From: Oscillospiraceae bacterium
GTDB taxonomy: Bacteria; Bacillota; Clostridia; Oscillospirales; Ruminococcaceae
DNA length: 64,000 nucleotides
Direction of reading: 5' to 3'
Assembly: GCA_018380115.1 (NCBI GenBank)
Contig: JAGZUF010000002.1
Span: forward strand, 110,281-174,280
Shown: positions 4,439 to 50,480 of the stretch, piece after piece
Numbering within the stretch: position 1 is the first letter of the stretch
Layout: each line of letters starts with the position of its first letter
Made by a program: the position numbers and the translations under genes
The notes under the pieces: generated by a model
What the model saw: the letters and a program-made list of their open reading frames with translations, nothing else
Databases searched by the model: none
Told to the model about the DNA's origin: nothing

Positions 4439-5692
4439 TCAGCCTTCCACGGGCTGGGCCGCGGCACCGGCTGTTTTCTCCTGCAGCGTCACATTCAGGC
4501 TGAACACCTGCTTACCGCGCACCACCTGCACCTCGATGGTGTCTCCCACCTGGTGCTGGTCCAAAACGGCGGTCACATCGCTGGTGCTGGACACCGCTGT
4601 TCCGTCTACGCTTACGAACATATCGCCCACCTTCAGGCCGGCCTTCTCTGCGGCCGAGCCCTCATCCACGCGCTGCACATATACGCCCAGTTGAGACACT
4701 CCTGCCTGCATGGCTGTTTGCAGGTCTGTAATGGCAACCACCTGGATGCCCATGGCCGGGCGCCCGCTGACATAGCCGTTCGCAATAAGCTGCTCTGCCA
4801 CTTCCATGGCGGTATTGATAGGCACGGCAAACCCGATGCCCTCTACATCTGAGCCGCCGGATTTCGCGTTCACGATGCCCACCAGCTCGCCCCTCTCATT
4901 AAACAGGCCGCCGCCGGAATTGCCCGGGCTGACGGCTGCCGACATCTGCAGCAGCGTCATCGTCTGGTTGTTTACGGTAACTTCACGGTCCAGTGCAGAA
5001 ATAATGCCGTCTGTCACCGTGCCGCCAAGCGTACCCAGCGGGTTGCCTACGGCCACAGCCGTCTCGCCCACCACCAGGCCGTCGGAATCGCCGATGACTG
5101 CGGGCGTCAGGCCGCTGGCGTCTATTTTCAGCACGGCGATGTCCGTTTTGTCGTCCGTGCCCACCACAGTGGCGTCATACTGCTGCTTATCGCTGGTGGT
5201 CACCTTCACAGTGCTCTGGCCTTCCACCACATGGTTGTTCGTAAGGATATAGCCGTCCTCCGAAATAATCACGCCGGAGCCCGCCCCGTTCGTGACATAC
5301 TGCGTGAAAATGCCGTTAGTCTGCACCGCCTCCGTGGTTACCTCCACCACGCTGGGGCCCACTTTCTGCGCAATCTGCGCAATACTCATTGCATCGCCGT
5401 TTGCTGCAGTGGTGCTGGCGCTGGCGCCGCTGCCATCCTGCACCGCTTTATATACCACCGGGCCGGACGCCCCTTTGATGAGCGAGGCACCCAGCACACC
5501 GCCGCCAACGCCCGCCAGTGCGCATACCAGCACCAGCGCAACAGCGGCCAGCGCCTTTTTTGTCCCCGCACGTTTTTTCTTCGGCGGCTGTCCGGGCTGT
5601 TCCGGCCCATTCAGCGAAGGGTCCTGCGGAGGTTGTGTATACTGCGGCTGTGCATAGCCGTTCGAATAATCATATTGCCAATTGTTATCCAT
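4439..5692 (-). CDS. htrA: HtrA/DegP-family serine protease with C-terminal PDZ domain (paralog 1)
   Basis: N-terminal TM anchor; catalytic triad contexts TNNHVV / DIAVLKI / GNSGGGL; PDZ-like C-terminus. Confidence 0.9.
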   Translation of the reverse strand: MDNNWQYDYSNGYAQPQYTQPPQDPSLNGPEQPGQPPKKKRAGTKKALAAVALVLVCALAGVGGGVLGASLIKGASGPVVYKAVQDGSGASASTTAANGDAMSIAQIAQKVGPSVVEVTTEAVQTNGIFTQYVTNGAGSGVIISEDGYILTNNHVVEGQSTVKVTTSDKQQYDATVVGTDDKTDIAVLKIDASGLTPAVIGDSDGLVVGETAVAVGNPLGTLGGTVTDGIISALDREVTVNNQTMTLLQMSAAVSPGNSGGGLFNERGELVGIVNAKSGGSDVEGIGFAVPINTAMEVAEQLIANGYVSGRPAMGIQVVAITDLQTAMQAGVSQLGVYVQRVDEGSAAEKAGLKVGDMFVSVDGTAVSSTSDVTAVLDQHQVGDTIEVQVVRGKQVFSLNVTLQEKTAGAAAQPVEG

Positions 5693-5822: not shown

Positions 5823-6357
5823 CATACCCTCAAGTCAGCCCCCCCCCGGCACAGCCTGGGGCTTGCGTAAGCTCTGGAAGGGCATATACCGGCAAGCCTC
5901 TCAAGAGGCGCTGAATTCCCTGTCTCCTGTATTATTTGCTACGCACCCCGTAAACGGGGTGCTTCCCATTACATGCTGCATCTTTTGGGTGTTGAATACC
6001 ATCCCGCTTCGCCCGAAACTGACAGCGAAAGCCTTTTCACTCTCCCCGGCCAGCCGGGGGGCGTTTCGCTAAAGCTGGCCAAATCAAACCCACCGGCTGG
6101 GCCGGTGGGTTTGGCTGACATGATAAGCGCCCGCTGCAGGCATTTCGCGCAAGGCGCGCGAGGGCTTATTTCGCCCGTTCCCCGGCGCTGCAGCCCGCAA
6201 ACGAGCATCCGACAAATTTTCATGTCCGGCCGGCCCGCTGCCGATGGTCCGCTTCGCCCGGTGCCTGAAGCAAGGGCGCCTTTACAGGGCGGGCCAGCCG
6301 GTGGCTTTTTCCTTCCCAAAAAGCGCCACCCCGGCTACGGCCGGGGCGGCAGGGGCT
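5823..6357. repeat. Copy A of a novel ~260-bp GC-rich module arranged as a ~535-bp long imperfect palindrome (left arm 5823-6082, central perfect hairpin 6083-6112, inverted diverged right arm 6113-6357)
   Basis: Nucleotide-level homology to 40645-41195 and 50221-50480. Central hairpin CAAACCCACCGGC-tgg-GCCGGTGGGTTTG. The right arm reverse complement retains the terminal CCCCGGC-N-GCCGGGG hairpin. Confidence 0.6.
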
Positions 6358-7266
6358 TCAGGAAGAGTGAGGCGGCCGCGGTGCGCACTTCTTCTCTATG
6401 CACACCGCCACCGGCGGGTTCCCAGCTTCATGTTCAAACAACCGGATATCCACCTGATACGCCTGCGGGGGCAGAACACGGGCCCATGACAGAACGGCAT
6501 CGCGTTCCGTGGTGCCCTGCAGCCCGCCGGAATAGGCGCATACCGTCAGCGCCCCGCCCCGTACAAGGGCCGCCAGCGCGGCATCCATTGCCGGCAGACT
6601 GCTGCGCGGCGTGGTGAACAGCGCATGGCTGCCGCCCGGAAGATAGCCCAAATTGAACATCACCGCACACGGCCTCCCCTCTTTTTTCAAAATGTCCGCC
6701 AGCCCGGCATGGTCTGCCCTCACAGCGTGCCCGATATGGGCAAGGCCCACGCTTTGCAGGCGCGCGTTGGTGGCGTCCACTGCCTGCTGCTGGATGTCCA
6801 TCGCCAGCACACGCCCCTGCGGCCCCACAGCCCGGCACAGGAACACCGTGTCGTGGCCATTGCCCGCCGTAGCGTCTACGGCAAAGCCGCCCGGCCTGAT
6901 GAATTCGCGCAGAAAGGCGTGGGCACAGGCCACCGCGTTGTCTGCCCCGGCGCGCACCCCGCGGCACAGCACCGGCCCGCCGCCCGCAAACCCGCACCTT
7001 TTCAAAAACGCCTGCGCCGCGGCGCCCTCGGCACGCGCCCAAAGCCCGCGCGGCCCGCCGGCGCACACGCGGCGCAGAAGGAACGTGCCGTATCCCCGGC
7101 CGCGCCATTCCGGCGCGATATATACGGCTTTTATCCACTCGCCCTCGCGCAGGGCGGCGCCGATGGCGGTACCGTCCTTCTCCAGCACCAGGGTGCCGGG
7201 GCAGCCGGAAAGGCCGGCTGCCCGCAGTAACGGCCCGTCCCCCTGCAAAACCTGCCGCACCTGCAT
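6358..7266 (-). CDS. Fusion protein: N-terminal minimal GNAT acetyltransferase domain plus C-terminal YtqB-type (PF06962-like) SAM-dependent methyltransferase
   Basis: GNAT motif A (RGRGYGTFLL); MTase motif I FAVDATAGNGHDTVFL and the characteristic MFNLGYLPGGSH block. GGAGG RBS 7 nt before the ATG at 7266. Confidence 0.7.
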   Translation of the reverse strand: MQVRQVLQGDGPLLRAAGLSGCPGTLVLEKDGTAIGAALREGEWIKAVYIAPEWRGRGYGTFLLRRVCAGGPRGLWARAEGAAAQAFLKRCGFAGGGPVLCRGVRAGADNAVACAHAFLREFIRPGGFAVDATAGNGHDTVFLCRAVGPQGRVLAMDIQQQAVDATNARLQSVGLAHIGHAVRADHAGLADILKKEGRPCAVMFNLGYLPGGSHALFTTPRSSLPAMDAALAALVRGGALTVCAYSGGLQGTTERDAVLSWARVLPPQAYQVDIRLFEHEAGNPPVAVCIEKKCAPRPPHSS

Positions 7267-34949: not shown

Positions 34950-35916
34950 TATGTTTCTTTTATTTTGTGCCGTTGAGTGCATTCTCTGCCTTCGGGATGA
35001 AAATGCCGGGCACATCTTTGGCGGGTGCCGCTGTTTTTCCCTGCACAGTGCGCAGATATGGGCACGCAGGGCCCGTGCTCCTGTTTATTGTGCTTTGTGC
35101 ACAGGCGTGCAGTTCCAGCTTCGCCTGTTCCCGGTTGTATGCAGAGAAAACACGGGCCTCTGCGGGGTGCGCGTCGTTTGCATCTCTTTTATTTTGTGCG
35201 GCATTACACATCCTCACGCCTTCGAGGCGGGAACCGGCATTTTCCGCCCCAACCCCTATTATGAACAAGGCTGTAAAAAGGCATGGAACCCGGCAGCTTT
35301 CACTGCCGGGCCCCATGTCCCCTGCTGGAAGAAAAAGAAGTTAAGCTTTTGCCTTGTGCTCCCTGTGCGGGCGCACGGGCACGCCCTTTCCGCACGCAGG
35401 CGCACGGGCCCGGTTCTGTACGTTCCCGGCCAGCCTGCGGATGAGCCTGCAAGATGCCAGAGGCCCCGGCAGTTTTTTGACTGCCGGGGCCTCTGTTGCA
35501 GGGATATGAGAAATATGAGGAGATAGGCTTGTTTTCTGTGCTCCCTGTGCGGGCGTATAGGTGCACCTTACTGGCCGAAGGGCCGCGTTATTTGGGCGTG
35601 CCGTTTCGGCACACGGGCAGGCGTTATAAGCCCTATGTAGGAACATAAACGCACCCTTTCGGGCTCGGAACAGGCGTTACAGCCCCGGCGGCCGAAGCCG
35701 CCGGAGGGGGGCAGGCCGCACCAGTTAGAAGAAAATATGAGAAGATATGCTCGTTTTCTGCGCGCCCTGCGCGGGCGCGCGGGTGTGCCTTACAGCCCGA
35801 AAGGCCGCGTTATTTGGGCGTGCCGTTTCGGCACACGGGGCGGGCGTTATAAGCCCTATGTAGGAACATAAACGCACCCTTTCGGGCTCGGAACAGGCGT
35901 TACAGCCCCAGAAGTG
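34950..35916. repeat. Degenerate tandem array, about five units of 160-230 bp; the two distal units (35497-35685 and 35727-35916) are nearly identical over about 150 bp
   Basis: Recurring blocks: CTTTTATTTTGTGC / TTTTCTGTGCTCCCTGTGCGGGCG / GGGCCGCGTTATTTGGGCGTGCCGTTTCGGCACACGGG…GCGTTATAAGCCCTATGTAGGAACATAAACGCACCCTTTCGGGCTCGGAACAGGCGTTACAGCCCC. Internal hairpins GTGCCGtttcGGCAC and GCCCGAAAGG…CCTTTCGGGC. Confidence 0.6.
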
Positions 35917-38761: not shown

Positions 38762-40615
38762 ATGAGCAGAAAGCAGAAGAGAGGGCTTGCCCGCATTGGT
38801 GCGGGCGCCGTGCTGCTGGCGGCGGCATGGCTGCTGCCGCTGGAGGGGTGGGCCTCGCTGGCGGCCTTCGCCGTGCCCTATGCCGTGGTGGGCTGGGATG
38901 TGCTGTGGAAGGCCGTGCGCAACATTCTGCACGGGCAGGTGTTCGACGAAAACTTTTTGATGGCGCTGGCCACCGTGGGCGCGTTTGCCACGGGCGAATA
39001 TTCAGAGGGCGTGGCGGTTATGCTGTTCTACCAGATAGGCGAATGGTTTCAGCGCTATGCGGTGGGGCGCTCGCGCAAGTCTATTACAGCGCTGATGGAT
39101 ATCCGGCCGGACCACGCCAACCTTGTGGGGCCGGACGGCACCGCGCAGGAGGTAGACCCTGATGAAGTAAGCGTGGGCAGCACCATTCTGGTAAAGCCGG
39201 GCGAGCGTGTGCCGCTGGACGGCACCGTGCTGGACGGCGACAGCATGCTGGACACAGCGGCCCTCACCGGTGAAAGCGTGCCGCGCCACGCGGCGGCGGG
39301 TGACGCCGTCGTCAGCGGCTGCATCAACGGCAGCGGGCTTCTGCGCGTGCGGGTAGATAAGCCGTACGGTGAATCTACCGTGGCCAAAATTCTGGACCTT
39401 GTGGAAAACGCAGGCGAGAAAAAGGCCAAGGCAGAAAACTTTATCACAAAATTTTCCCGCTGGTACACCCCTGCCGTGGTGATAGCGGCGCTGGCGCTGG
39501 CCGTGCTGCCCCCGCTTGTGCTAGGCGGCGGCTGGGCCGGCTGGGTGCACCGCGCGCTTATCTTCCTTGTCATCAGCTGCCCGTGCGCGCTTGTCATCAG
39601 CGTGCCGCTGTCTTTCTTCGGGGGCATCGGCGGGGCCTCCCGGCGCGGCATTCTGGTGAAGGGCGGCGCGTATATGGAGGTGCTGGCCAATACCGGCACT
39701 GTGGTGTTCGACAAAACGGGCACGCTGACAAAGGGCGTGTTCAGCGTGACGGCCGTGCACCCGCATGAAATAGACAAAGCGCAGCTTGTAGAGCTGGCCG
39801 CACTGGCCGAAAGCTATTCCACGCACCCCATTGCGGCCTCGCTGCGCACGGCCTACGGCCAGGCGCCCGACACCGCGCGCGTGGCAGATTATGAAGAGCT
39901 CTCCGGCCGGGGAGTGCGCGCCAAAGTGGACGGCCGCACCGTATGCGTGGGCAACGGCAGGCTGATGGACGAGGCCGGTGCCGAATGGCACGAATGCCAC
40001 CTGACGGGCACGGTGGCGCATGTGGCGGTGGACGGCCGCTATGCCGGGCACATTGTCATTTCCGACGAGGTGAAGCCGGACGCCGCCGCAGCCATTGCCG
40101 CGCTGAAGGCGGCAGGCGTGCACAAGACGGTGATGCTGACGGGCGACGCCAAAGAGGTGGGCGAAGCCGTGGCAAAGCAGCTTGGCATAGACGAGGCGCA
40201 CACACAGCTTCTGCCCGCCGGCAAGGTGGAGCATATGGAACAGCTGCTGGCAGGCCAGCCGAAGGGCGAGGCACTTGCCTTTGTGGGTGACGGCGTGAAC
40301 GACGCCCCGGTTCTGGCCCGCGCCGATGTGGGCATCGCCATGGGCGGCATCGGCTCTGACGCAGCCATAGAGGCCGCCGACGTGGTGCTGATGGACGACA
40401 AGCCCTCGAAGCTGGCCGAGGCCGTGCGCATCTCGCGGCGCACCCTGCGCATTGTGCATCAGAACATCGTGTTCGCGCTGGCAGTGAAGGCGCTGGTGCT
40501 GGTGCTGGGCGCGCTGGGCATGGCTAATATGTGGGAGGCCGTGTTTGCAGACGTGGGCGTGATGGTGCTTGCCATTCTGAACGCCATGCGCGCGCTGAAG
40601 GCGCCGCGGGAATAG
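38762..40615 (+). CDS. P1B-type heavy-metal translocating ATPase (CPC motif; Cd/Zn/Pb-type likely) lacking its own N-terminal HMA domain
   Basis: TM CPC (SCPCALVISVP), DKTGTLT, HP (SYSTHPIAAS), GDGVNDAP; 617 aa. Confidence 0.95.
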   Translation: MSRKQKRGLARIGAGAVLLAAAWLLPLEGWASLAAFAVPYAVVGWDVLWKAVRNILHGQVFDENFLMALATVGAFATGEYSEGVAVMLFYQIGEWFQRYAVGRSRKSITALMDIRPDHANLVGPDGTAQEVDPDEVSVGSTILVKPGERVPLDGTVLDGDSMLDTAALTGESVPRHAAAGDAVVSGCINGSGLLRVRVDKPYGESTVAKILDLVENAGEKKAKAENFITKFSRWYTPAVVIAALALAVLPPLVLGGGWAGWVHRALIFLVISCPCALVISVPLSFFGGIGGASRRGILVKGGAYMEVLANTGTVVFDKTGTLTKGVFSVTAVHPHEIDKAQLVELAALAESYSTHPIAASLRTAYGQAPDTARVADYEELSGRGVRAKVDGRTVCVGNGRLMDEAGAEWHECHLTGTVAHVAVDGRYAGHIVISDEVKPDAAAAIAALKAAGVHKTVMLTGDAKEVGEAVAKQLGIDEAHTQLLPAGKVEHMEQLLAGQPKGEALAFVGDGVNDAPVLARADVGIAMGGIGSDAAIEAADVVLMDDKPSKLAEAVRISRRTLRIVHQNIVFALAVKALVLVLGALGMANMWEAVFADVGVMVLAILNAMRALKAPRE

Positions 40616-40644
40616 CACCTCCGGCGCATATTCAAAGTCAGGCC

Positions 40645-41195
40645 CCCGGCAAAGCCGGGGGCTTGCGTATGCTCTTCCAGGGCATACGCAAGCCTTTCAA
40701 GAGGCACTGAATGCTCTGTCTTTTGCATCACTTGCCCCGCCTCCCGCAAACGGGGTTCCTCCCGCTGCGTGCTGCCTCTTTTTGGGATTGAATGCCATCC
40801 CGCTTCGCCCGGAACTGACAGCGAAAACCTTTTTACTCTCCCCGGCACAGCCGCGGGGTGGCGTTTTGCTAAAACAAATAAAACAGGCAGGCGGCCTGCG
40901 GGTTCCCCCGCAGGCCGCCTGTTCTGTGTTTCGTTATATGCTTTGACGATATCCCCCCTGCTGGGGCGGGGAAAAGCTTCCGCCTCAAACAGCGGGCGAA
41001 GCGGGGAATGGAAAGCGGCCTCGCGGCCAGTAAAAAAGGCCTTCTGAAAAAGCAGTGCCCGTTTACGGGCTGCCGTGCAGGTGATGCAGGGGGCGGGTTC
41101 TATTCCATGCCTTCTGAGGGGCCTGCCGGCACAAAGCGGCACTTTCAGAGCTTGCGCACGCCCCGGCTTTGCCGGGGGACATGGTTAAAAAAGCC
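40645..41195. repeat. Copy B of the ~260-bp module family arranged as a ~550-bp long imperfect palindrome (left arm 40645-40887, central perfect hairpin 40888-40925, inverted right arm 40926-41195)
   Basis: Left arm homologous to 5823-6082 and 50221-50480. The reverse complement of the right arm aligns to the left arm (CCCCCGGCAAAGCCGGGG, CCCGTAAACGGG, CCCGCTTCGCCC blocks). Central hairpin ACAGGCGGCCTGCGGG-ttcc-CCCGCAGGCCGCCTGT with T-runs on both strands. Confidence 0.6.
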
Positions 41196-41562
41196 GCCGG
41201 ATGTGCGCCGCAAGAGGCTTCGGCCTCCCGCGCCGGGCAAAGCCGTCTGCGGGCAGCGCCTCTCAGGAACAAAAGCTCTGCTGCCGGAACGGCCCTTTCC
41301 TCCCCTGTTTTCGGGCCGCAGGCAGGCTGAACCCTTCTGCGGCCCGCGACGCGTGCCGGCAATGCGCCAAGCGCCCTCCACACCGTATAACTGCCGCCGC
41401 TGCCTGCCCAGGGGCCGAAGCAGAGGCCGGGGCCCCGGCATGGCCGGCGCAGAAAAGAGGGCTTTCCAGCCTATTGTGTGTTTGCCCAGGCCAGATGCGC
41501 TGCGCCAGGCTGCCCGGCGCGCGCCCTATTAAGGTGAAAGGAGCCTGCGCGCCGCACGGCCG

Positions 41563-43792: not shown

Positions 43793-44050
43793 ATGAAAAA
43801 GATGTTAGCCGTTCTGACGGCCGCCTGTGTTCTGGCGCTGGGCCTTGTCGCCTGCAGCTCTGAGCCTGCTTCTACGGGCAGCAGCGCGCCTGCTTCCACG
43901 CCTTCCAGCGTGGCCAGCACCAGCGAGCCCGCTTCCACCTCTGCCAGCGAGCCCGCCAGCACGTCTGAAAGCGAGCCCGCCTCTGCTTCCACCAGCGAGT
44001 CTGCCTCTGCTTCTGACGCCGGTGCAAGCTCTGTGTCTGAGGCTGAATAA
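43793..44050 (+). CDS. Small lipoprotein (85 aa) composed almost entirely of SEPAST low-complexity repeats
   Basis: Signal peptide plus lipobox LVAC. Mature part is (SEPASTS)n-like. RBS AAAAAGGAG. Confidence 0.55.
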   Translation: MKKMLAVLTAACVLALGLVACSSEPASTGSSAPASTPSSVASTSEPASTSASEPASTSESEPASASTSESASASDAGASSVSEAE

Positions 44051-49916: not shown

Positions 49917-50220
49917 TCCAGAACACCCCTTTGCCCGCCCCGCGCGCCCCTGACGGCGCCGGGCGGAAATGTCACACATCCCGCGCGCGGGCATGCGGCG
50001 GACATGCCCGCCTGCACAGCCGCAGCACTCGGAAAGCTGTCAGCTTTATCATAGCACAAACCCGCCGGAATGGAAAGCGACAAAGTCACACAGCGCCGCG
50101 CCGGGCGGCGGCCCTCTTCAGACTTTCCTCTGCTTCAAGTTACGGCCCGCAAAATAGAGCGCGCCTCCATTGTGCGGCGCGCCGCGCCGCCGTATAATAA
50201 AGGCAGGCCGGCATGAACTA

Positions 50221-50480
50221 AAGTCAGCCTCCCCGGCAAGGCCTGGGGCTTGCGTAAGCCCCCTGGAAAGGCATACTGCCGGCAAGCCTCTCAGGAGGCA
50301 CTGAATGCTCTGTCTCCTGCATCACCTGTCCCGTCCCCCCCCCGTAAACGGGATTCTTGCCCCCCTTGCGTGCTACATCTTTTTGTATTGTATACCATCC
50401 CGCTGCGCTCGAAGCTGGCAGCGAAAGCCCTTTTACTCTCCCCCGCACAGTGGGGGAGTGTCGTTTTGCGAAAGTAAAAA
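50221..50480 (+). repeat. Copy C of the ~260-bp module family: single arm only, ending exactly at the RBS of the XRE-TPR gene
   Basis: Aligns to 5823-6082 (closest) and 40645-40887. No central hairpin or inverted arm; instead AAAAACAGAGAGG RBS and the ATG at 50498. Confidence 0.55.

What the first reader, a model, noticed from the sequence alone, without database searches (positions are those of the whole stretch)
5823..6357. Unannotated ~260-bp GC-rich hairpin-dense module family (three copies in the window); copy A is a ~535-bp long imperfect palindrome centred on a perfect hairpin
Regions 5823-6082, 40645-40887 and 50221-50480 are in the same orientation. They align at nucleotide level with small indels, roughly 75-85% by eye (not computed). 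Shared blocks are AAGTCAG, CCCCGGCA(A/C)AGCC(T/G)GGGGCTTGCGTA, GGCAAGCCTCTCAAGAGGCRCTGAAT, CCCGTAAACGGGG, CCATCCCGCTTCGCCCGRAACTGACAGCGAAAG and CTCTCCCCGGC. Several predicted stems differ between copies with compensating changes: CCCCGGC-cag-CCGGGG vs CCCCCG-cacagt-GGGGG, and CCTCTCAAGAGG vs CCTTTCAAGAGG vs CCTCTCAGGAGG. Short ORFs inside are in different frames in different copies, so conservation is not protein-driven. In copy A the arm is followed by a perfect 13-bp stem (6083-6112) and then an inverted, more diverged arm (6113-6357). The reverse complement of that arm ends with the same CCCCGGC-N-GCCGGGG hairpin and GGAAGG block. The whole element is therefore a long imperfect palindrome sitting between the GNAT-MTase gene and the htrA promoter. 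No transposase is present. Possible interpretations: a MITE/REPIN-like mobile palindromic element, a long-hairpin ncRNA, or a structured terminator/insulator. I could not match it to any RNA family I know.
Basis: seen in the sequence. Interest (0 to 1): 0.8.

Follow-up and report, generated by a model that had tools for sequence, protein, structure and literature searches.

The report
Terminator-hugging hairpin repeat family, not palindrome
The three look-alike ~245-base segments are real and belong to an undescribed family of non-coding, hairpin-rich repeats scattered through a gut Ruthenibacterium-like bacterium. Each copy sits with its 3' end beside a transcription-terminator hairpin, and the claimed 535-base palindrome is really two copies in tandem.

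Summary
The repeat is real. Copies A (5832-6075), B (40634-40875) and C (50220-50475) are about 84% identical on the + strand. Profile searches add three diverged copies: A2 (6081-6324, +), D (41188-40934, -) and partial D' (about 41364-41189, -).

The long palindrome is not supported. The "inverted arm" is a tandem, same-orientation diverged copy, and the "perfect 13-bp stem" is that copy's own 5' hairpin.

An a-type pattern matched 15 times in one species genome of 185,579 (Ruthenibacterium sp. MAG C039_43). Human-gut metagenomes gave about 60 more non-redundant copies in at least three subfamilies. There is no Rfam hit, no consistent reading frame, no terminal inverted repeats, no target-site duplication and no conserved promoter. 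No transposase lies in the window.

Seven local hairpins are kept with compensatory changes. In 51 of 62 copies an unrelated GC-rich hairpin starts 0-19 nt after the 3' end. Copies cluster head-to-tail or convergently around one terminator. A related species has an empty site at locus A. Orthologous copies diverge faster than their flanks.

Best reading: a selfish, non-autonomous interspersed repeat that homes beside hairpins, possibly moved as single-stranded DNA by a hairpin-binding enzyme. The mechanism and partner are unproven. A structured-RNA role is not excluded.

The parts
5832..6075 (+). Copy A, an a-type element of about 245 nt. Its 5' hairpin H1 is at 5844-5861 and its 3' hairpin H6 at 6044-6059. 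It ends in ...CGTTTCGCTAAAGC.
   Evidence: nhmmer E=1.2e-73. Alignments. It is antisense to both neighbouring genes, HtrA-like 4439-5692(-) and GNAT-methyltransferase 6358-7266(-).
6081..6324 (+). Copy A2, a diverged b-type element in tandem with A and in the same orientation. Its 5' hairpin H1 is the 'perfect 13-bp stem' at 6085-6113.
   Evidence: nhmmer with the diverged-subfamily profile, which did not include this copy: 6082-6294, model positions 6-226, E=1.5e-12. Hairpin I3.
6325..6350 (-). Intrinsic terminator hairpin of the GNAT-methyltransferase gene, with a T-run on the minus strand. This is the flanking hairpin that the 3' end of A2 abuts.
   Evidence: Terminator scan, (minus strand 6351-6324: 12 pairs, then CTTTTTGGGA).
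40634..40875 (+). Copy B, an a-type element. It starts 19 nt after the stop codon of a P-type ATPase gene (38762-40615, +) and ends about 10 nt before a terminator.
   Evidence: nhmmer E=1.8e-74. Sequence. Gene calls.
40886..40923 (.). A bidirectional terminator hairpin with 17 pairs. It is unrelated in sequence to the element and is flanked by the 3' ends of copies B and D.
40934..41188 (-). Copy D, a diverged b-type element on the minus strand. It is convergent with B across the shared terminator.
   Evidence: nhmmer E=2.6e-22 with the a-type profile, which excludes D. D was itself a member of the diverged-subfamily profile, so its E=1.7e-49 against that profile is not independent. An orthologous copy is present in L045.
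41189..41364 (-). Copy D', a decayed partial copy lying head-to-tail upstream of D.
   Evidence: nhmmer with the diverged-subfamily profile: 41326-41192, model positions 107-237, E=3.6e-7.
50220..50475 (+). Copy C, an a-type element. It lies between a TATAAT box (about 50193-50198) and the ribosome-binding site and ATG (50498) of an HTH_3 regulator gene. It is one of the few copies with no flanking terminator.
   Evidence: nhmmer E=9.1e-74. Sequence. The ortholog in L005 shows flanks at about 97% identity and the element at about 90%. The gene is identified.

Best explanation
This is a family of selfish, non-autonomous interspersed DNA repeats. Each unit is about 245 nt, with at least three subfamilies (a, b, c). 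The family belongs to a Ruthenibacterium-like gut lineage.

Shown:
- Each unit is a string of seven local hairpins. Similar GC-rich hairpins sit near both ends: H1 begins about 5 nt from the 5' end (A)AGTCAGG, and H6 ends about 17 nt before the 3' end ...TTTCGCTAAAGC.
- Units carry no gene, no terminal inverted repeats, no target-site duplication and no promoter of their own.
- Units lie with a fixed polarity. The 3' end sits about 8-14 nt, through an A-rich stretch, from a pre-existing GC-rich hairpin of unrelated sequence.
- That hairpin is usually the intrinsic terminator of a gene converging on the element. Sometimes it is the 5' hairpin of a resident copy.
- This placement produces head-to-tail arrays (A-A2, D'-D) and convergent pairs around a single terminator (B/D).

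Inferred:
- Copies were inserted at these places rather than duplicated together with them.
- They are moved in trans by an enzyme encoded elsewhere, one that recognises the end hairpins on a single strand. The best candidate is an IS200/IS605-TnpA-like or RAYT-like HUH transposase acting on single-stranded DNA.
- Terminator hairpins and the element's own H1 would act as decoy landing marks.
- Resident copies then drift at about the neutral rate and exchange sequence with paralogs.
- Any effect on neighbouring genes, such as the leader of the HTH gene at copy C or the spacer before htrA at copy A, is secondary.
For: Multi-copy and lineage-restricted:
- There were 15 exact pattern matches, all in one of 185,579 species genomes.
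- That genome is 94.7% identical to the window over 8 kb.
- A further 60 or so non-redundant copies came from gut metagenomes and two IMG/VR contigs.

Flanks and site occupancy:
- Flanks are unrelated between copies.
- A species sharing synteny (76% amino-acid identity) has 144 nt where the window has 665 nt at locus A.

Polarity toward hairpins:
- 51 of 62 copies have a GC-rich stem of at least 6 bp starting 0-19 nt after the 3' end, against 19 of 62 on the 5' side.
- Flank folding energy is -22.8 versus -11.9 kcal/mol, Wilcoxon p=2e-8.
- The downstream gene is convergent in 52 of 66 cases. In tandem-gene contexts 19 copies are antisense and 7 sense. Only 5 copies lie in divergent spacers.

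Tandem junctions have no spacer or only a few nucleotides (L006, L013, L127, window A/A2).

Features that are absent:
- No conserved promoter upstream.
- No target-site duplication.
- No terminal inverted repeats beyond the hairpin arms.
- No consistent reading frame.
- No Rfam family.

Hairpin conservation:
- 84.4% of cells are paired, against 31-52% when partners are slid.
- 88 cells change on both sides, against 47+-6 in shuffles, with 0 of 500 shuffles as high.
- The H1 and H6 arms resemble each other more within a copy than between copies: 3.49 versus 3.82+-0.08 differences, 1 of 5000 permutations.

Rate and strand:
- Orthologous copies are 82-96% identical where their better-conserved 300-nt flank is 94-99.7% identical, in 9 of the 10 pairs compared. 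Variants are swapped in blocks.
- The element strand is the C-rich strand in 47 of 67 copies. This fits a strand-biased, replication-linked process.
Against: - No partner enzyme was found. No longer element carrying these ends was seen in about 1 Mb of fetched loci, and the window has no transposase.
- No filled/empty pair was found between close strains. All strains at 93-100% flank identity keep the copy. Exact junctions and true mobility are therefore inferred from one distant empty site.
- The end geometry differs from IS608, and no invariant target tetranucleotide was shown. There is only a preference for (A/C)AG at the 5' junction.
- H6 in the c subfamily (CCCCAGC/GCTGGGG) is not mirrored in H1.
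- Internal sequence blocks and seven hairpins are conserved across subfamilies of only about 60% identity. That is more than end recognition alone would need.
- G-T versus A-C mismatch counts do not identify a folded strand (231 versus 183).
Confidence: 0.55

Rival explanations
1. The element is a family of structured non-coding RNAs of about 250 nt with seven hairpins. They could be trans-acting sRNAs ending at the flanking terminator. They could also be cis elements in 3' or 5' UTRs that stabilise, process or attenuate neighbouring transcripts.
For: - Hairpins are kept with compensatory changes across subfamilies.
- Unpaired blocks are conserved, for example GCATCAC-TGCCCC, CCGCTTCG and AGCGAAAGC-TTTT.
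- Almost every copy is followed by a terminator.
- Copy C sits exactly between a TATAAT box and a ribosome-binding site.
- 40 of 66 copies follow a gene on the same strand.
Against: - There is no conserved promoter upstream.
- In tandem-gene spacers most copies are antisense to both genes (19 versus 7), and sit after the terminator rather than before it. At locus A the flanking hairpin has no T-run in the element's direction.
- Orthologous copies evolve faster than their flanks.
- Many copies carry internal deletions.
- The terminators are unrelated in sequence, so they were not copied along with the unit.
- No Rfam family matches.
Confidence: 0.2
2. The element is an RNA-mediated retroposon that behaves like a SINE. 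An element transcript with an A-rich 3' tail anneals to the T-tract of an intrinsic terminator on the opposite strand. A reverse transcriptase encoded elsewhere then copies it into DNA.
For: - The 3' end runs into an A-rich stretch (...AAAGC ATACAAAAC / AGCAAAAAC) that is the complement of the terminator's T-tract.
- Polarity is fixed relative to terminators.
- There are no terminal inverted repeats or target-site duplications.
- Head-to-tail arrays occur.
- The placement resembles that of group IIC introns after terminators (from general knowledge, not tested here).
Against: - No reverse transcriptase was seen nearby or in the window.
- No group II intron signature was found in Rfam on either strand.
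- There is no internal or upstream promoter.
- The 5'-shortened copies proved to be ordinary deletions, not truncated reverse transcripts.
Confidence: 0.07
3. Copy A together with 6113-6357 forms one imperfect palindrome of about 535 bp. It would extrude as a cruciform or long-hairpin RNA, centred on the 13-bp stem.
For: - Local alignment of A with the reverse complement of the right-hand region scores above shuffles, z=4-6.
- GC-rich hairpins occur on both sides.
- The whole block of about 520 nt is missing in a related species.
Against: - The profile alignment places the right-hand region in the same orientation as A over about 220 model positions, E=1.5e-12. The reverse orientation gives only a 65-nt hit at E=0.02.
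- The excess local score comes from palindromic hairpin arms that read alike on both strands.
- MAFFT alignment of the reverse-complemented arm with A, B and C is poor.
- The same head-to-tail a/b arrangement recurs in L006, L013, L015, L127 and L139.
Confidence: 0.02
4. The element is a domesticated termination or insulation module. The units themselves strengthen or buffer transcription termination between neighbouring genes, and are kept for that reason.
For: - The family is strongly enriched at convergent and terminator-bearing spacers.
- H6 followed by GTCGTTTTGC is flagged as terminator-like in copies B and C.
- Copies are retained in all strains examined.
Against: - Nearly every copy already lies next to a much stronger canonical terminator.
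- Orthologous copies drift faster than their flanks and carry deletions.
- A related species manages without the block at locus A.
Confidence: 0.1

Closest known systems
IS200/IS605-derived non-autonomous elements (PATEs) and their single-stranded-DNA transposition by the HUH Y1 transposase TnpA
   Same: - No terminal inverted repeats and no target-site duplication.
- Similar imperfect hairpins close to both ends on the same strand.
- Polar insertion and head-to-tail arrays.
- A strand bias.
- Small, non-coding and multi-copy.
   Different: - No TnpA or TnpB partner was found, and no full-length parent.
- Hairpin-to-end distances are about 5 nt and 17 nt, against 19 and 10 in IS608 (IS608 values from memory).
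- No invariant target tetranucleotide was shown.
- The strong preference for a neighbouring hairpin is not a described IS200/IS605 trait.
REP/BIME elements and REPINs with their RAYT transposases (mostly Proteobacteria)
   Same: - Extragenic and GC-rich, and forming hairpins.
- Concentrated at gene 3' ends and between convergent genes.
- Clustered in mosaics.
- Thought to be moved by a hairpin-binding HUH enzyme.
   Different: - REPs are single palindromes of 20-40 nt, and REPINs are inverted REP pairs of about 100 nt.
- This unit is about 245 nt with seven different hairpins, occurs as direct repeats, and comes from a Firmicute.
- No RAYT was identified.
BOX, RUP and bcr repeats of Firmicutes, and Correia or ERIC elements
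   Same: - Lineage-specific, non-coding and structured repeats of 100-300 nt in intergenic regions.
- Often near terminators and sometimes co-transcribed.
- The transposase is unknown, or a borrowed one is used.
   Different: - RUP, bcr1 and Correia have terminal inverted repeats and target duplications.
- BOX is modular (boxA, boxB, boxC).
- None shares sequence with this family.
- None is reported to show this fixed 3'-end-to-hairpin polarity (from memory; no paper describing this family turned up in two literature searches).
Mobile elements that home to hairpins: group IIC introns after intrinsic terminators, and IS1397/ISKpn1 or IS110-family elements in REP sequences
   Same: The landing site is defined by a stem-loop such as a terminator or REP rather than by a long sequence. 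Insertion has a fixed polarity relative to that stem-loop.
   Different: - Those are autonomous elements of 1-2 kb that encode a reverse transcriptase or a transposase.
- No intron domains were detected here (Rfam).
- No bridge-RNA-type partner is known here.

Membership tests
Classical MITE (derived from a DDE transposon) | Terminal inverted repeats at the two ends | tested here: not met
   The inverted-repeat search finds only internal hairpins. The ends AAGTCAGG... and ...CGTTTCGCTAAAGC are not complementary.
Classical MITE (derived from a DDE transposon) | Target-site duplication flanking each copy | tested here: not met
   The longest shared word between the 20-nt left and right flanks is 4.19, against 4.04+-0.14 for shuffled pairings, and 38 of 300 shuffles are as high.
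Classical MITE (derived from a DDE transposon) | Small, non-coding, many dispersed copies with unrelated flanks | tested here: met
REP / REPIN | A unit that is one imperfect palindrome of 20-40 nt, or two of them inverted around a short spacer (a REPIN of about 100 nt) | tested here: not met
   The unit is about 245 nt with seven distinct hairpins, and copies are direct rather than inverted.
REP / REPIN | A RAYT (TnpA_REP) gene in the same genome, flanked by the repeats | not testable with these tools
   The whole genome could not be retrieved. There is none in the 64-kb window.
IS200/IS605-type non-autonomous element (PATE) | Similar subterminal hairpins at both ends on one strand, with no terminal inverted repeats or target-site duplication | tested here: met
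   H1 is CCCCCGGC-AAA-GCCGGGGG and H6 is CCCCGGC-ACA-GCCGGGG. Their within-copy similarity exceeds the between-copy similarity. Target-site duplication and terminal inverted repeats are absent.
IS200/IS605-type non-autonomous element (PATE) | Insertion 3' of a fixed tetra- or pentanucleotide | tested here: inconclusive
   The 5' junction shows (A/C)(A/C)AG before TCAGG, with A at 77% and G at 87%. This may be the element's own end. No close empty site is available to decide.
IS200/IS605-type non-autonomous element (PATE) | A full-length parent with tnpA and/or tnpB carrying the same ends | tested here: inconclusive
   None was found among the fetched loci or the window. Whole genomes were not searchable.
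Any Rfam RNA family (including group II introns, HEARO/omega-RNA, IS605-orfB motifs and riboswitches) | A covariance-model score at or near the gathering threshold | tested here: not met
   There were 0 hits at gathering score in the 64 kb. Only sub-threshold noise appeared at E<10 for copy A and E<1 for b- and c-type copies.
Independent small-RNA gene | Its own promoter at a fixed distance upstream, and its own terminator | tested here: not met
   No position-specific -10 or -35 signal was found in 49 aligned upstream regions. The terminators are non-homologous flanking hairpins. Transcription itself cannot be tested here.

The most novel reading that the evidence does not exclude
The family would be a new class of hairpin-homing mobile element in Firmicutes. 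It would be a multi-hairpin module of about 245 nt that is copied through a single-stranded intermediate, DNA or RNA. It would land with fixed polarity about 10 nt from any strong GC hairpin, using intrinsic terminators and its own 5' hairpin as landing marks. The conserved internal hairpins could serve as a guide or scaffold RNA for an unidentified trans-acting enzyme. Alternatively it is a new large structured ncRNA class tied to terminators.
Probability: 0.15. Interest if true: 0.75.

Novelty: new variant of a known kind. Interest (0 to 1): 0.45.

Why it matters
Practical consequences:
- About 1.4 kb of this 64-kb window is made of these repeats, which standard pipelines leave unannotated. 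They are likely to break assemblies and confuse sRNA or riboswitch predictions in gut Oscillospiraceae MAGs.
- Copies sit at gene ends and promoters: before htrA, and in the leader of an HTH regulator. They are plausible sources of strain-level differences in expression.
- Rearrangement breakpoints fall inside them, for example a 1.8-kb deletion ending within a copy.

Mechanistic interest:
- The fixed 3'-end-to-hairpin polarity, with no inverted ends and no duplications, is a clean, testable signature of structure-directed targeting.
- If the partner enzyme is found, it would add a Firmicute counterpart to REP/RAYT or IS200/IS605 biology. It might also be a programmable hairpin-recognising system.

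Tried and rejected
1. Long palindrome at locus A: rejected by the orientation of the profile alignment.
2. Known RNA family: rejected after Rfam searches at gathering score and at permissive E-values on a-, b- and c-type copies.
3. A long-range helix AGUCAG/CUGAC closing the whole element was suggested by three sequences. It was dropped because the 5' partner varies without compensation in the larger set. RNAalifold on 55 sequences gives no global fold, and only local hairpins hold.
4. A terminal helix AGCGAAA/TTTCGCT enclosing H6 is not conserved in b-type tails or in the L031, L066, L008 and L010 variants, so it was dropped.
5. 5' truncation as a mechanistic signature of retroposition or rolling-circle copying: the shortened copies are ordinary deletions at orthologous loci, or deletions between internal CCGGCAAGCC repeats.
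6. Own promoter or sRNA gene: no upstream motif was found.
7. Protein coding: a stop-free frame is common, as expected at this GC content. However, the frame differs between copies and there is no clear codon periodicity.
8. Search for a parent element:
- Flank-sharing analysis, gene context and three viral-contig scans found only solo copies.
- Two of those solo copies lie in IMG/VR contigs (L029, L154).
- blastn against plasmid and phage collections found nothing.
9. Empty sites among close strains: none was found.
10. Group II intron in reverse orientation: no Rfam signal was found, and no GUGYG 5' end or domain V was seen by inspection.
11. Two literature searches found no description of this family, and a third failed on syntax.
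Full report
**1. Observation**

- Pairwise identities are 84.0% (A-B), 83.5% (A-C) and 84.2% (B-C).
- Mean column identity is 86%.
- A degenerate 29-nt block matches only these three places in the window, with none expected by chance.
- The refined limits are A 5832-6075, B 40634-40875 and C 50220-50475.

**2. The palindrome claim fails**

A profile of 18 copies found a fourth, diverged copy, D, on the minus strand at 41182-40941. D converges on B across a 17-pair bidirectional terminator at 40886-40923.

A second profile was built only from diverged copies, none of which lie to the right of A.
- It aligns window 6082-6294 on the + strand, over model positions 6-226, with E=1.5e-12.
- The opposite orientation gives only a 65-nt hit at E=0.02.

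So the segment to the right of A is a head-to-tail b-type copy, A2 (6081-6324).
- The 'perfect 13-bp stem' (6085-6113) is A2's own 5' hairpin.
- The final CCCCGGC...GCCGGGG hairpin (6325-6350) is the terminator of the minus-strand GNAT-methyltransferase gene.
- Plain pairwise alignment cannot separate the two orientations, because the hairpin arms read alike on both strands.

A further decayed copy, D' (about 41364-41189, minus strand), precedes D. The window therefore holds six copies at three loci.

**3. Distribution**

- The a-type block matched 15 times in 185,579 species genomes. All 15 matches were in MAG Ruthenibacterium sp. C039_43.
- That MAG is 94.7% identical to the window over 8 kb.
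- Window proteins occur in hundreds of human-gut assemblies.
- A looser block shared by the subfamilies retrieved many more copies from gut metagenomes and one from a viral-contig collection. A second viral contig has a b-type copy.
- After removing duplicates there are about 60-65 full-length copies in at least three subfamilies, here called a, b and c.
- Nothing similar exists in the plasmid or phage collections.
- No Rfam family matches any subfamily.

**4. Anatomy**

Homology starts at (A)AGTCAGG and ends at ...CGTTTCGCTAAAGC, followed by a few subfamily-specific A-rich bases.

Features that are absent:
- No conserved promoter upstream.
- No target-site duplication.
- No terminal inverted repeat.
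- No consistent reading frame or clear codon periodicity.

I wrote a model of seven local hairpins from the sequences and counted it on 55 diverse copies.
- 84.4% of cells are paired, against 31-52% when partners are slid.
- 88 cells change on both sides, against 47+-6 in shuffles, with 0 of 500 shuffles as high.
- Clear swaps include G-C/A-U at 288-296, A-U/G-C at 98-128, and four pair types at 153-167.

The two end hairpins are alike: H1 is CCCCCGGC-AAA-GCCGGGGG and H6 is CCCCGGC-ACA-GCCGGGG. They are more alike within a copy than between copies. This effect is modest, and the c subfamily breaks it.

Global folds were not supported.

**5. Placement**

- In 51 of 62 copies a GC-rich stem of at least 6 bp begins 0-19 nt (mostly 8-14 nt) after the 3' end. 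On the 5' side the figure is 19 of 62.
- The 3' flank folds far more stably, -22.8 versus -11.9 kcal/mol, p=2e-8.
- These hairpins are unrelated in sequence from copy to copy. They were therefore not copied with the unit.

I built a codon-usage gene caller and checked it against the collection's own gene calls. It gave the following contexts:
- The gene beyond the 3' end converges on the element in 52 of 66 cases.
- In tandem-gene spacers the element is antisense to both genes in 19 cases and sense in 7.
- Only 5 copies lie between divergent genes. Copy C is a further divergent-spacer case, which the caller scored as (opp, opp) because its call for the HTH gene overlapped the element.

Copies cluster in three ways:
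- Head to tail with no spacer or only a few nucleotides (A-A2, L006, L013, L127, L139).
- Convergent around one terminator (B/D, L014, L056).
- With the 3' end of one copy about 10 nt from the 5' hairpin of the next.

The rule that fits all of these is that the 3' end faces a strong hairpin. That hairpin is a terminator in either orientation, or another copy's H1.

**6. History**

- A related species with the same gene order (GNAT-methyltransferase 76% identical) has a 144-nt spacer where the window has 665 nt.
  - Homology resumes at TTTCACGCTTTTTTCAC, just outside copy A.
  - The missing block is the terminator plus A2 and A.
  - This empty site is too diverged to read exact junctions.
- Among strains and sister species at 93-100% flank identity, every locus that could be compared keeps its copy.
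- Shortened copies are ordinary deletions. One is a 1.8-kb deletion ending inside an element. Others are deletions between internal CCGGCAAGCC repeats.
- Orthologous copies are more diverged than their flanks in 9 of the 10 pairs compared. Elements are 82-96% identical, against 94-99.7% for the better-conserved 300-nt flank.
- Copy C differs from its ortholog by blocks of paired changes in two hairpins and by an extra 21-nt 5' segment. This looks like exchange with paralogs rather than point-by-point drift.
- Together these points indicate an old burst, weak constraint on primary sequence, and concerted evolution.

**7. Interpretation**

The data fit a selfish, non-autonomous interspersed repeat better than an RNA gene.
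- There is no promoter.
- The orientation relative to genes is mostly wrong for a UTR role.
- Drift is fast.
- The flanking terminators are unrelated.
- One locus is empty in a relative.

The following features work like single-stranded-DNA HUH elements such as IS200/IS605 derivatives or REP/RAYT:
- No inverted ends and no target-site duplications.
- Look-alike hairpins at both ends on one strand.
- Polarity toward hairpins and tandem arrays.
- A strand bias, with 47 of 67 copies on the C-rich strand.

I take that as the most likely mechanism. Membership in those families is not shown, for three reasons:
- No partner enzyme or parent element was found.
- The end geometry differs from IS608 (from memory).
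- No fixed target word was demonstrated.

Several rivals remain:
- A structured-RNA function stays open because seven hairpins and several unpaired blocks persist across subfamilies only about 60% identical.
- A retroposon-like route is suggested by the A-rich tail facing the terminator's T-tract, but it has no supporting enzyme or intron signature.
- A domesticated termination or insulation role is also possible.

**8. Verdict**

The family is undescribed as far as Rfam, the plasmid and phage collections and two literature searches show. It behaves like a known kind of bacterial repeat, with one unusual and testable targeting rule.

Interest is moderate. It would rise sharply if a hairpin-homing enzyme or a discrete RNA product were found.

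Noticed in passing
window 35330-35910 (+): A different, unrelated repeat. A unit of about 222 nt is present two to three times in tandem, at 86-99% identity between units. It lies in a gap of about 650 nt between two ORFs with no Pfam domain. TRF at default settings reports nothing here.
   Followed up: partly
window 43883-44016: A 24-nt periodic repeat (AGCGAGCCCGCC...) inside an ORF. It probably encodes a low-complexity protein repeat (family D3).
   Followed up: no
window 50200-50240 vs L005 400-430: The window's copy C has an extra 21 nt (GGCATGAACTAAAGTCAGCCT) at its 5' edge. This creates a second copy of the 11-nt element start (AAAGGCAGGCC / AAAGTCAGCCT). It looks like a footprint of replacement or conversion by another copy.
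   Followed up: partly
L046 6869-7011 and L097 4363-4505 vs L149/L010/L031: A deletion of about 1.8 kb removes a gene and the first 103 nt of an element. Several independent shortened copies begin near model position 100-104 (L046/L097, L118/L124/L135, L050), and one 5' fragment ends there (L006 1538-1636). This may be a recombination-prone point in the element.
   Followed up: partly
L029 6842-7096 and L154 667-927 (IMG/VR contigs): Two diverged copies of the family lie on contigs classed as viral (50 kb and 82 kb). Both are in the usual position beside a terminator hairpin. They may be prophage regions of related hosts.
   Followed up: partly
L090 3432-3575, L100 10858-11000, L134 (downstream flanks): Three copies share not only the element but also 143-384 nt of downstream sequence, including the terminator AAAAGCCCCGGAAAAC...GGCTTTCCGGGGC. 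The upstream flanks of L090 and L100 differ. L134's upstream flank could not be assessed, because only about 43 nt of it is available. This could be a larger duplicated unit or a rearranged ortholog.
   Followed up: no
window ~60000-64000 (L216 1-4126): One end of the window holds part of a giant surface protein gene. The called product is 2961 aa, with Cna_B, DUF5979 and DUF7601 domains.
   Followed up: no
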